Positions 22,951 through 57,929 of a DNA stretch of 64,000 nucleotides are shown here, piece by piece. Position numbers and translations under genes: made by a program. The notes under the pieces were generated by a model. It was not told the origin of the DNA. It did no database searches and saw only the letters and a program-made list of their open reading frames with translations. Source of the stretch: Octopus vulgaris. Its lineage: Eukaryota. Position 1 is the first letter of the stretch. Each line of letters opens with the position of its first letter. The DNA is taken from contig OX597823.1 of NCBI GenBank assembly GCA_951406725.2, positions 111,600,001-111,664,000 on the forward strand, in the 5' to 3' direction.

Positions 22951-23548
22951 AGGAACTAAAGGTATGTTTTTGCCAATGTTTGCAATGATAAACCCGTTCT
23001 TTAAACAGAGCGAACAAGAAGATTTACCTTTATCATATGGAAAAGACCTAGATAGAATATTTCATTAAACATACCATCAGTTCCTATAAGTAATTTCTAC
23101 CATTCTATAAAATTCGACCTTTAACTATCTTCTTACATTTCCTTTCCACTAAATATTTCCACAATTTTAAGCTCTATTCCCATTCATCTATCGCACTACA
23201 TTTCTACTATTTTCTTTTTTCTCCTCCTTCTCTTTCTCTAAATTGCATTTGACGTTAAATCTATTAATGGTATTTAAAAAAAAATAACTTGCCAGTTTTC
23301 CCTTCATCATATATGCAGTCATCACATTAGGGTTAAAATGGCTTATTGATGTTGTTTCTCCTTTTTTCCCTGATGAGAAGATCTCATTGTTTTACATCAT
23401 GTTATTCCCTCTGGAATAATACCAATGTTTTCTTTGAAACATATGTTGGAAGTATGAAAATTTGAATAACACCTGTGTTTATCTCCATTTCTATATTTAT
23501 CTGCTATACAAAAATATTTCACTTAACCCTGAAATTTCTACCTGTTTT
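22951..23548 (+). mobile_element. PLE-like 3' fragment/pseudo-LTR between (TG)n and (TA)n
   Basis: Contains an HHR. Its first 19 bp (22951-22969) are an inverted copy of 23067-23085 (17/19 match), and it ends in (TA)n. The PLE assignment is inferred. Confidence 0.6.
23366..23451 (+). ncRNA. type I hammerhead ribozyme motif, core intact
   Basis: TTCC-CTGATGA-GAAGA...TCTTT-GAAA-CATATG-TT-GGAA. Stem I is TTCC/GGAA, stem II GAAGA/TCTTT, stem III the palindrome ACATATGT, and the triplet GUU. Confidence 0.8.
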
Positions 23549-23903
23549 ATATATATATATATATATATATATATATATATATATATATATATATATGTAT
23601 GTATATATGTATATATATATATATATATATATATATATGTATGTATGTATATGTATATGTGTATATATATATATATATATATATGATGTGTATACTCATT
23701 GTAAATGTATATACAAGAATACATATATGCATAACATTTCAAATGCAAGGTAAGGGTTTAATAAATATATAATTTAGCCTCACTAGCAGAAATATATTGA
23801 GATTTCATCTCAAGTTTATTCCTCTGTGGGAGTAAAAATGTATCACATAGTGAATTTTCTGGTTTTCAAACTATTTCCCATTTACAGAAACAGTTGCAGC
23901 CTA

Positions 23904-24460
23904 TCTATTATATAAAATCCGATCTGTCTGTGTGTCTTCTAGGATCTCGGACATCTTCCTTCTGATTGCGCTCAAATTTGATATGTAGATACCGACGGTA
24001 TCAGGGCATGTATAAGTCTTGAAAAAATTACAAAAATCGATTCCAGGTGAGAAAGCGATCGATAAAGCTGTGGGAATGTGCATTTGTACGTACAAGTACA
24101 TCAGCTGTTGTGATCGATACTACGCGTATGCAAGAAAAATGTCCATGCAGTTTGCGCAAAAAAGCTGGCTGGCTTGAAATAATGCCACAAAATGCAGTAT
24201 ATTTAAGAGACCAAAAACGTAAGGTGCAAAAGAGATATTTTCTTCAAACTTGGCATGAAGGAAGGAAAGACTATTTGGTTCTCAAGAAGTTTTTTTTTCT
24301 TTGCCTTAACTTCGTTTAACAAAACCAAAAATTTTATTGAAATAAAGGCATGCTTAATTATTTTTTAATGAAAAGAAAACACTGATTGCTTTTTATTCAG
24401 CAGATATGATTCACCACCGTCCATTGGATGGGGGGGGGGGCGTTTGACTCGTTCCTACTA
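23904..24460 (+). mobile_element. possible non-autonomous Helitron-type element 5' part
   Basis: A|TCTATTATATAAAA start followed by a CTGTCTGTGTGT tract, and the body retains CpG. No 3' CTRR end was located. Confidence 0.4.
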
Positions 24461-25026
24461 ACTGAGTATTAAGAGTTGATCAAAAAGTTAATTATGTCAA
24501 GTTTGTATAGTAGAGCAAGTAATGACACAACTTAGCTTTGCCATTGGATTAATTTGGAATCTAATATAAAGCTTTAACATTTCCAGCATCCTCACATTTG
24601 TGTTTCATTAACTGACATCCAGTGTTGGTCTGTTTATGTCCCCATAACTTTGAGGTTTGGCAATAAGTATCTGATGGAATAAGTACCAGCCATAATTGTG
24701 CACTGGGGTTGATTCAGTTAACTAAACACTTCAAGATGATGCTCCAGCATGGTCGTTGTCCAGTGACTGAAATAAGTGAAAAACATAAAAGACTTCTATG
24801 TAGTTTTGATTTCAAAAATAAACTAATTTGTTACACTTCAAGTTTATCCCCCCATGGGCTGAAAAAATGTAGAGATTAATCTTATCTGATTAGTTTCTGG
24901 TTTTTATAAGTCTTCATTAGAGAAAGACTAACTATTTTCTATAGGCTATGAGAATAACAAATTATAACTATTTATAGTGTATACAAAGTACCGATAGTCT
25001 AATTAGCATAAAAGTATATACACTAA

Positions 25027-56297: not shown

Positions 56298-57363
56298 TTA
56301 AACTGTGTGTCTGATCTGCTGACAGAGGCGCACCTTCCAGTTCAATAGCAGAAACTTGTCAAAACTACTTTGTTAAAATTGCTGATATTGAGTTCAGAAG
56401 GTCAGTACATATACTTTGATCTCATAAGGATGTGTGTTCTTTCTACTACACAGTGCTTACACTTTTTGATCCACAAATCCTATATCTCTCTATGATGTTC
56501 CACATGATGGTGCATGGTATATAACTGTCCTCCAGGTCCAAAATATGACTGGATAGCTATGGTATATCTTTTCTGAAGTCACTGTTGCACAGTCCCATAA
56601 ATATTTTCTTTCAGTTTCTTTATTTGACAGAACAAGTGACCTCGGCTTCTTAGATGACTTAGTTAATCATGCATGCTTGGTTTAATGGGCAAATATCTGG
56701 ATTCCTGAAGAGGTAGTTTTGAATATGCAGCTTGCGTGGCTTATGTGAAATGTTTTTGAAATTGGGACTTCAACGTTCATGTAACAACTATTGATGATTT
56801 CTTTTTATCAATGGTGTTTGAAAAATGTCTGTTTATCATGGCTAGGAAAGTTTCTAGAAGCTGTGGCACTAATATGTAAAATATCCTTTCATGTAAGCCA
56901 CACAAGGTACCTTCGCCAAACTGTAACCTCAGGAATTTCAATAATTGCCCACTAAATCAGGCATGCATGATTAGCTCAGTCATCTGTGATGTCAAGGTCA
57001 CCTTTGTTCCACCAAAGAAGGAAACTAAAGGTATAAATATATTGGATTACTTGAAAGTGACTTCAAAAAGAGATATGTCAACCACTGGTCTTCTTTCAAA
57101 TATATACTCAAAAGGAAACACATGAAGTGAGCAAGTTACAACTGGACCTGGAGTGGAGTAATTTAGAGAGTTCTAGTTGCATTAGGTGTTCAAAAACCGA
57201 AAGCTCTGTGTCACTGAAAGAACATTCATCCTCATTGGATTGAAGAACTACAGGGATCTAGTAAACTTGATATCAAGCATTTTTATACAAAGTAGGGAAC
57301 TTGACATGTTTCTGTTACTGAACTGATAGACACCCTCCTTAATGGATCAGATACCCTGTTTAA
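56298..57363. mobile_element. old ~1.07-kb foldback element with ~460-bp diverged inverted arms
   Basis: 56298-56757 aligns to the reverse complement of ~56878-57363 in several blocks. TTAA occurs at both outer ends. Confidence 0.75.
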
Positions 57364-57720
57364 CGTTGCTTAGTCATTCTCCAACTAGGCATGATTATTT
57401 CAGAAGTAAATGCTCAACATTAATACTCATTCATCTGATGAGTGAAAGGAGTATAACTTTTGTTCCTCTTTTCTCAGTATTTTCTTCTCATTCCTTGATA
57501 TTTTCTTGTTCCTATTTTATTGCATCTCCTCATGGAGTATCCATGACTCCTGAGCCTGAATAGTTGCCAGAATGTCCAGGGTATGCTATACAAGCCCAAA
57601 TGATTACTGCACCAGCCAAGCAGGAAACTTGGAGTTTGTACTCTTGTACAAGTATGTGTGCCTGTATATATATATATATATATATATATATATACATATA
57701 TATATATACATATATATATA

Positions 57721-57929
57721 GTTAATCCAAACAAGAAAGCACAAAAAAACACAACAACGCGAGAACGTGGAACAAATATAGTATTATTGGACGCTCAGGA
57801 AAGAAGGAAAGAAGGAGGGTTTAACGTTTCGAGCAGAGCTCTTCATCAGAAACATAGGAGAAGGAAAGATCCAGAGAAGGGAAGACAGAGGAAAAAAATC
57901 GCCAACGGTACACACGAGGTCACATTTTG
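57721..57929 (-). mobile_element. ~210-bp HHR-bearing insert between (TA)n tracts (PLE pseudo-LTR-like)
   Basis: CpG-retaining unique sequence with sharp (TA)n boundaries on both sides. Confidence 0.7.
57819..57853 (-). ncRNA. minimal type I hammerhead ribozyme (35 nt)
   Basis: GTTT-CTGATGA-A-GAGC-TCT-GCTC-GAAA-CG-TT-AAAC. Stem I is GTTT/AAAC, stem II GAGC/GCTC, stem III the ACGT palindrome, and the triplet GUU. Confidence 0.85.

What the first reader, a model, noticed from the sequence alone, without database searches (positions are those of the whole stretch)
23366..57853. Each well-preserved HHR has a different palindromic stem III, implying dimer-dependent cleavage
Seen: stem III reads ACATATGT, ACGATCGT, ACAGCTGT, ACTGATCAGT, ACTAATTAGT and ACGT, six different perfect palindromes at the same position. 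Established: minimal HHRs with a palindromic stem III cleave as double hammerheads. Inference: selection acted on palindromy rather than sequence. Solo copies would be largely silent, while tandem or same-family transcripts could activate each other, with the palindrome acting as a family-specific pairing code.
Basis: partly seen in the sequence, partly recalled or inferred. Interest (0 to 1): 0.7.

Follow-up and report, generated by a model that had tools for sequence, protein, structure and literature searches.

The report
Palindromic hammerheads with long second stems
Seven hammerhead ribozyme motifs here, likely leftovers of Penelope-like jumping genes, carry self-complementary stems predicted to let them cut only in pairs, which is a published pattern; the less ordinary feature is that six have an unusually long second stem.

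Summary
The six palindromes are present and each sits at stem III of a type I hammerhead (HHR). Five have intact cores; ACAGCTGT sits in a copy with two core mutations. Selection for self-complementarity and double-hammerhead cleavage are well supported, but both are published: Perreault 2011 (Fig. S8) and Cervera 2014 list family-varying palindromes, including two identical to ones here. The 'pairing code' is not supported. Stem I is also exchanged in a dimer and already blocks cross-family pairs (0-3 bp in 28 of 28). All-different palindromes are expected by chance (P about 0.67). In 8 of 11 published multi-family genomes, families share a palindrome. Context fits Penelope-like 3' remnants: ends near (TA)n and an inverted truncated copy, but no RT or GIY-YIG was found. 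The unusual feature is a 45-61 nt stem II in five unrelated families, against at most 23 nt in 56 published examples. No cleavage was measured.

The parts
23365..23452 (+). H1: type I HHR, intact core, 5-bp stem I, 59-nt stem II, stem III ACATATGT (23439-23446), predicted cut after 23447
   Evidence: stem II folds better than 991 of 1000 shuffles
35164..35252 (+). H2: type I HHR, intact core, 6-bp stem I, 58-nt stem II with U·U at its base, stem III ACGATCGT (35238-35245)
   Evidence: stem II energy not beyond shuffles (176 of 1000 as good)
59965..60052 (-). H2b: second copy of the H2 family (79% identity over 118 nt), intact core, stem III ACGATTGT, self-complementary through two G·U pairs
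   Evidence: shared 21-pair stem II rod, 88% of cells paired against 31-57% when slid (structure drawn from these two sequences)
40981..41070 (-). H3: decayed HHR, core CCAAUGA (two changes), 5-bp stem I, 61-nt stem II not closed, stem III ACAGCTGT (40987-40994)
42047..42130 (+). H4: type I HHR, intact core, 8-bp stem I, 47-nt stem II, stem III ACTGATCAGT (42112-42121)
   Evidence: full-length Rfam RF00163 match with a 33-nt loop II insertion, 24.8 bits, E 4e-4, below gathering score 34
41865..41973 (-). Inverted, 5'-truncated copy of the H4 3' flank (matches 42118-42224, 98%), joined head-to-head and ending in (TA)n
48330..48405 (-). H5: type I HHR, intact core, 5-bp stem I, 45-nt stem II, stem III ACTAATTAGT (48336-48345); its active double-hammerhead is the cofold minimum
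   Evidence: stem II folds better than 998 of 1000 shuffles
57819..57853 (-). H6: classical minimal PLE-type HHR (extra base after A9, 4-bp stem II, ACGT) in a 210-bp island between (TA)n tracts
   Evidence: no hammerhead match in Rfam
48660..48756 (-). H7: ambiguous decayed HHR-like region with three possible registers; none has an intact core, a stem I and a palindrome together
   Evidence: its 3' flank 48555-48653 has an 82% copy at 59808-59906

Best explanation
These are type I hammerhead motifs, likely the 3' (pLTR) remnants of at least six unrelated Penelope-like retroelement families, whose self-complementary stem III was likely selected because the ribozyme is predicted to cleave as a double hammerhead. 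Shown in the sequence: the cores, the stems, the palindromes, unrelated stem II and tail sequences between families, 3' ends close to (TA)n, and one inverted truncated copy. Inferred mechanism: in the source element, two pLTR copies in one tandem transcript pair their stem III strands over the full 8-10 bp (4 bp for H6) and swap stem I strands, so each core cuts the partner's NUH site. Alone, the 0-3 bp hairpin does not form, or the palindrome's 3' half pairs back on the CUGAU core (H4, H5). Because any self-complementary centre works, the centre drifts by paired changes and differs between families as a by-product. Homodimer preference follows from stem I plus stem III together and needs no selected code. 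The solo, 5'-truncated genomic copies here are probably inactive relics. The 45-61 nt stem II is probably a tolerated, rod-like extension that points away from the junction.
For: Scan against shuffles: 7 loci against a mean of 0.23, and 5 of 7 perfect palindromes against 5 of 93. Inner pairs P about 1e-5. Stem III hairpin +1.5 to +2.4 kcal/mol against self-duplex -7.0 to -13.6 for the five 8-10-mers. Active homodimer relative to two monomer minima: -5.4 to +2.0 for the five long-stem-II HHRs folded; cross-family +9.1 to +36.6 in 14 of 14 pairs. All 8 sites lie within 235 nt of a downstream (TA)n, against 25% of background positions within 240 nt; median P 0.002. Cut site to 3' end is 101-103 nt for H1, H4 and H6, close to 85-92 nt in the anole Poseidon element (my arithmetic from PMC11167929). 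Inverted truncated copies and microsatellite bias are PLE traits (bioRxiv 10.1101/2021.04.23.441226). Same architecture as the published PLE consensus, including U·U at the base of stem II in Hydra and D. willistoni.
Against: No RT or GIY-YIG Pfam hit in 221 translated segments (221 of 445 segments of 55 aa or more; low-complexity ones left out), so the PLE link is circumstantial. The folding model does not give the active fold even as a dimer for H2, H2b and H6 (P 0.02, 0.11, 0.00), and the H6 homodimer is +6.9 kcal/mol. Invertebrate retrozyme HHRs with a 2-bp stem III plus tetraloop cleave well as monomers (PMC7229834). The anole PLE HHR needs the element's protein and is dispensable for insertion in vitro. 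Only one family has two copies, so no family consensus could be built. Stem II is more stable than shuffles in only 2 of 6. Distances for H2, H2b, H3 and H5 (23, 38, 235, 171 nt) do not fit the roughly 100-nt spacing.
Confidence: 0.72

Rival explanations
1. One reading: palindromes diversified under selection so that families activate only their own members in trans.
For: All families here differ; stem III self-duplexes of the 8-10-mer families (-7.0 to -13.6; the decayed H2b -5.8) beat cross-family duplexes (at best -5.0); heterodimers are unfavourable in 14 of 14 pairs.
Against: Stem I alone blocks heterodimers (0 bp in 17, 1 bp in 9, 2 bp in 1 and 3 bp in 1 of 28 ordered pairs). All-different is expected with P 0.67. 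Families share a palindrome in 8 of 11 multi-family species of PMC4209133 Fig. S3. H3's palindrome equals the Nematostella entry of PMC3088659 Fig. S8.
Confidence: 0.1
2. The 8-10 nt versions cleave as monomers (2-3 bp stem plus tetraloop), helped by the long stem II or by the element's protein; palindromy gives an optional boost or is a relic.
For: The monomer hairpin is sterically possible for H1-H5 and costs only -0.5 to +2.0 kcal/mol within the junction; protein-assisted PLE HHR; efficient monomeric invertebrate HHRs.
Against: Inner pairs are kept at P about 1e-5, which a monomer does not need; monomer P(15.1-16.1) is at most 0.01 in 6 of 6; no loop I/loop II contact motif was identified (not tested by covariation).
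Confidence: 0.15
3. They are monomer offspring of non-LTR retrozymes (tandem 170-400 nt repeats that spread as circular RNA), not direct PLE 3' ends.
For: Six of the eight motifs lie in 181-459 bp islands between (TA)n tracts, within or near the retrozyme size range; retrozymes are proposed to derive from PLE pLTRs (bioRxiv 10.64898/2026.07.22.740005).
Against: No tandem array of any of these units; the head-to-head inverted copy and variable 5' truncation are PLE-like; minimal H6 matches the PLE consensus.
Confidence: 0.12
4. Chance matches in AT-rich repetitive DNA, picked by eye.
For: With relaxed cores chance hits are common (4 and 25 loci in the reversed control); only 1 of the 4 regions scanned locally (holding H1, H4, H5/H7, H6) had an Rfam hammerhead match, and none reached gathering score in the whole window.
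Against: 0 of 400 shuffles reach the observed count under the strict scan.
Confidence: 0.01

Closest known systems
PLE-associated minimal and palindromic type I HHRs (Cervera & de la Pena 2014, PMC4209133; main text parts 1-2 of 4 and the whole supplement PDF read)
   Same: Type I topology, short stem I, extra or mismatched base after A9, palindromic stem III that varies by family (4-10 nt), dispersed solo copies, proposed dimer activity. H6 fits the consensus; H1-H5 resemble the Hydra, D. willistoni, Aedes and Saccoglossus(2) rows.
   Different: Stem II is 45-61 nt here against at most 23 nt in the 56 listed rows (hand count); their descriptor caps it near 25 nt. No ORF link was shown here.
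Repeat-type HHRs of Aedes, Schistosoma, Nematostella and Xenopus (Perreault et al. 2011, PMC3088659; passages and Fig. S8 read)
   Same: Fig. S8 states the palindromic character of stem and loop III, shows alternative centres within a species, and draws a 10-bp dimer stem; its Nematostella entry equals H3's palindrome.
   Different: The drawn Aedes example has a short stem II; their filter rejects 10.1-11.1 mispairs such as those in H2, H4 and H5.
Lunse, Weinberg & Breaker 2017, PLE HHR variants that cleave as dimers (PMC5785218; not held, seen only as cited in PMC6765202, PMC6466107 and PMC7761336)
   Same: Dimer cleavage of short, palindromic stem III HHRs, per the title and the reviews.
   Different: Could not check whether long stem II variants or heterodimers were covered.
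Rfam RF00163 Hammerhead_1 / non-LTR retrozymes (PMC7229834, passages)
   Same: Type I core; H4 aligns over the whole model.
   Different: Below gathering score because of a 33-nt loop II insertion; no tandem arrangement here.

Membership tests
Type I hammerhead ribozyme | Core C3-A9, G12-A14, A15.1-U16.1, H17 | tested here: met
   Intact in H1, H2, H2b, H4, H5, H6; not in H3 or H7
Type I hammerhead ribozyme | Stems I, II and III close the junction, stem I open-ended | tested here: met
   Stem I 4-8 bp; stem II closes within 1 nt of the core with 3 bp or more in 5 of 6 intact copies, 2 bp in H2b
Type I hammerhead ribozyme | Rfam RF00163 gathering score | tested here: not met
   0 matches at gathering score; best 24.8 of 34 bits for H4
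Type I hammerhead ribozyme | Site-specific self-cleavage | not testable with these tools
   Needs a cleavage assay
PLE-type dimeric HHR | Palindromic stem/loop III too weak as a hairpin | tested here: met
   5 of 6 intact copies perfect, 1 G·U self-complementary; hairpin dG positive
PLE-type dimeric HHR | Stem II of about 25 nt or less (published descriptor) | tested here: not met
   45-61 nt in 6 of 7; 12 nt in H6.
PLE-type dimeric HHR | Active fold favoured as a homodimer | tested here: inconclusive
   Predicted for H1, H4, H5; not for H2, H2b, H6
Penelope-like element | RT plus GIY-YIG ORF next to the pLTR | tested here: inconclusive
   No Pfam hit in 221 segments; absence is expected for 5'-truncated copies; no eukaryotic genome collection was available to find full-length copies
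Penelope-like element | Inverted 5'-truncated copy at the 5' end | tested here: met
   1 of 8 loci (H4)
Penelope-like element | 3' end shortly downstream of the HHR, in AT-rich or microsatellite targets | tested here: met
   8 of 8 within 235 nt of (TA)n; median P 0.002
Penelope-like element | Tandem pLTRs giving two HHRs in one transcript | tested here: not met
   No same-family, same-strand pair; H2 and H2b are on opposite strands 24.9 kb apart
Non-LTR retrozyme | Tandem 170-400 nt repeats with one HHR each | tested here: not met
   No such array

The most novel reading that the evidence does not exclude
This genome holds an undescribed, search-invisible class of PLE hammerheads with a 45-61 nt rod-like stem II and 8-10 nt palindromes, present in at least five unrelated families. 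In the 10-nt members the palindrome's 3' half locks the monomer's own CUGAU core, so the ribozyme is a self-inhibited switch that only a same-family RNA can unlock, in cis or in trans.
Probability: 0.2. Interest if true: 0.55.

Novelty: new member of a known kind. Interest (0 to 1): 0.27.

Why it matters
The palindrome and dimer idea adds examples to a known rule. The practical value lies in the long stem II. With at least 5 such families in 64 kb and none caught at the Rfam threshold, HHR-bearing PLE remnants may be strongly undercounted in such genomes. The strong 8-10 bp palindromes also give cleaner natural substrates than the 4-nt ones for the open question of what PLE hammerheads do and whether they act in trans.

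Tried and rejected
Standard short-stem-II scans found only H6. Rfam gave 0 matches at gathering score; the E-value scan was swamped by microsatellite matches to miRNA models, and only 150 of 500 rows were shown; local scans gave a hammerhead match only for H4, and H2 and H3 were not scanned locally. MAFFT could not align the seven HHRs in register, so no covariance model was built. RNAalifold on the H2/H2b stem II gave a weak alternative fold (-3.15 kcal/mol); my hand-drawn rod has 0 two-sided changes and its shuffle control is uninformative with two sequences. Stem II sequences are unrelated between families in 14 of 14 cross-family pairs, and tails are related only for H2/H2b. Translations upstream and downstream showed no convincing PLE ORF; faint resemblances to an endonuclease C-terminus upstream of H1 and H5 are recalled impressions, untested. 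A protein search to place the host returned 3 unnamed hits and did not identify it; 'cephalopod-like' is a recalled impression only. An antisense HHR sharing the palindrome was rejected by inspection of the flanks. Searches for prior reports found none on long stem II PLE HHRs or on octopus HHRs or on heterodimer specificity, but two key papers (PMC5785218, PMC5850863) are not held, the Perreault descriptor file gave no hits and bioRxiv supplements could not be seen.
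Full report
Setting. The window is AT-rich (34% GC) eukaryote-like DNA, full of microsatellites and dispersed repeats. The host was not identified; 'cephalopod-like' is a recalled impression. Pfam found a Mos1 HTH and a Helitron fragment, and no RT or GIY-YIG domain, in 221 of 445 translated segments.

Observation. The six strings exist once each at 23439, 35238, 40987, 42112, 48336 and 57824. Each follows GAA and precedes H plus a strand that pairs with the bases just before a CUGANGA-like core. A short-stem-II scan sees only H6, because the other cores lie 45-61 nt upstream. 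Five cores are intact. H3 reads CCAAUGA and its stem II does not close, so it is not well preserved. To remove selection by eye I ran a palindrome-blind, intact-core scan. It gave 7 loci: 5 perfect palindromes, 1 self-complementary through G·U (H2b, a 79% copy of H2 on the minus strand at 60052-59965) and 1 non-palindromic (-62148). In 400 shuffles the mean was 0.23 loci, the maximum 3, and 5 of 93 hits were palindromic. Allowing one core change gave 12 loci (5 perfect, 6 self-complementary) against 4 in the reversed control; allowing two gave 64 against 25 and recovered H3. One relaxed hit, at 48744-48660 (-), has a 10-bp stem I (4 G·U), a G5 change and a non-palindromic stem III; the region has two other registers. 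It counts as a possible exception in a dead copy. Rfam supports H4 independently (RF00163 full length, 24.8 bits, E 4e-4, below threshold), but not H1, H5, H6 or H7.

Is palindromy selected? The outer 1-3 pairs are expected in any stem III. The informative pairs are the inner ones that a monomer hairpin cannot form. All 9 in the five intact perfect cases are Watson-Crick, P about 9e-6 (3e-5 counting 8), and they vary between A-U and G-C types across families. The families are otherwise unrelated in stem II (14 of 14 cross-family pairs no better than shuffles). This supports selection on self-complementarity. H2b differs from H2 by one C-to-T change at a CpG, consistent with decay after insertion (inference).

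Mechanism. Stem III hairpins cost +1.5 to +2.4 kcal/mol in isolation, while self-duplexes gain 7.0-13.6. In monomer ensembles the A15.1-U16.1 pair has probability at most 0.01 in 6 of 6. In homodimers it is 0.86, 0.71 and 0.88 for H1, H4 and H5, but 0.02, 0.11 and 0.00 for H2, H2b and H6. For H5 the active double hammerhead is the cofold minimum (-37.6). In H4 and H5 the monomer minimum pairs the palindrome's 3' half with the CUGAU core. That is suggestive of self-inhibition but rests on two cases. These models ignore tertiary contacts and Mg2+, so they are predictions only. Published work tempers the picture: PLE min-HHRs are weak even as dimers (PMC4209133), and the anole Poseidon HHR needs the element's protein, is dispensable for insertion in vitro, and shows no cleaved ends in RNA-seq (PMC11167929, passages and section 3 part 2).

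The pairing code. In a type I double hammerhead, H17 and the 3' strand of stem I come from the partner, so stem I is exchanged as well (geometry). Across families stem I gives 0 bp in 17, 1 bp in 9, 2 bp in 1 and 3 bp in 1 of 28 ordered pairs. Active heterodimers cost +9.1 to +36.6 kcal/mol in 14 of 14 pairs, against -5.4 to +2.0 for the long-stem-II homodimers; H6 with itself and H2 with H2b are both +6.9. Specificity is therefore real but redundant. All-different palindromes are expected with P 0.67 under drift. In the 56-row alignment of PMC4209133 Fig. S3, 8 of 11 species with several families have families sharing a palindrome (hand count). The code claim is not supported. No same-family tandem exists here, so these copies would need a partner in trans.

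What carries them. All 8 motifs end 23-235 nt upstream of a (TA)n tract (background 25% within 240 nt, median 662; P 0.002 for the median; null from plus-strand non-repeat positions; H7 taken in one of its registers). Six sit in 181-459 bp islands between tracts. H4 is preceded by a head-to-head inverted truncated copy of its own 3' flank. H1, H4 and H6 end 101-103 nt after the cut site, near the 85-92 nt implied for the anole element. These are PLE hallmarks (bioRxiv 10.1101/2021.04.23.441226, passages). Without an ORF, membership is likely rather than shown; retrozyme monomers (PMC7229834, passages; bioRxiv 10.64898/2026.07.22.740005, part 1 of 5 and passages) remain a rival.

Comparison with known work. 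Perreault 2011 Fig. S8 (PMC3088659; passages and that figure) already presents palindromic stem/loop III sets with alternative centres within a species and a 10-bp dimer stem; one entry equals H3's. Cervera 2014 names palindromy as a conserved trait, notes extreme family variability within genomes, and lists ACGU widely. Reviews repeat this (PMC6765202, PMC7761336, PMC6466107; passages). Lunse 2017, Arkhipova 2017 and Forster 1988 were seen only as citations. What departs is stem II: 45-61 nt in five families, against at most 23 nt in the 56 rows, whose descriptor caps it near 25 nt. It is significantly structured in H1 and H5 only (2 of 6), and a shared rod survives in H2/H2b (88% paired, with the bias noted). 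Searches found no description, but descriptors with longer loops are mentioned for Terminons, so it may not be new.

Verdict. The dimer inference is sound but published; the code is unsupported. New members of a known kind, with a possibly unreported long-stem-II form. Interest 0.27.

Noticed in passing
window 41973 / 42118-42122: The inverted copy beside H4 is truncated inside the stem III palindrome, 5 nt before the predicted cut site. The H7-family copy at about 59790-59906 also seems to start at the HHR's 3' end, blurred by (TA)n. Possibly reverse transcriptase stalls at the ribozyme; it does not show cleavage.
   Followed up: partly
window 42055-42121 (+) and 48400-48336 (-): The 3' half of both 10-nt palindromes is complementary to the ribozyme's own CUGAU core (-4.9 and -2.6 kcal/mol), giving a predicted self-inhibited monomer.
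   Followed up: partly
window 59808-59906 (+) and 59933-60113 (-): Two different HHR-family 3' ends converge tail-to-tail on the same (TA)n tract (59907-59932).
   Followed up: partly
window 48164-48891 (-): The H7 and H5 islands lie in tandem on one strand, separated by a (TA)n tract; they belong to different families.
   Followed up: partly
window 35030-35092: A 63-bp near-perfect fold-back 70 nt upstream of H2; origin unexplained.
   Followed up: no
window 35164-35169/35247-35252 and 60048-60053/59964-59969: Stem I differs between H2 and H2b by one apparent two-sided change (C-G against U-A) and one wobble.
   Followed up: partly
window 50684-52036 and 17209-17511 (+): Broken non-LTR retrotransposon remnants, with motifs recalled as restriction-like-endonuclease type; no Pfam hit; three unnamed protein relatives for one segment.
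   Followed up: partly
window 38964-39188 and 16187-16435 (+): Mos1-type transposase HTH (E 2e-12) and Helitron helicase N-terminal fragment (E 7e-7).
   Followed up: no
e.g. window 14230-14641, 21625-22040, 40505-40685, 41607-41795, 61687-62098: Several abundant SINE-like families with ten or more copies at 70-97% identity.
   Followed up: no
window 57264-57489 against 56159-56394: A diverged inverted pair (67% over 248 nt), unrelated to the HHRs.
   Followed up: no
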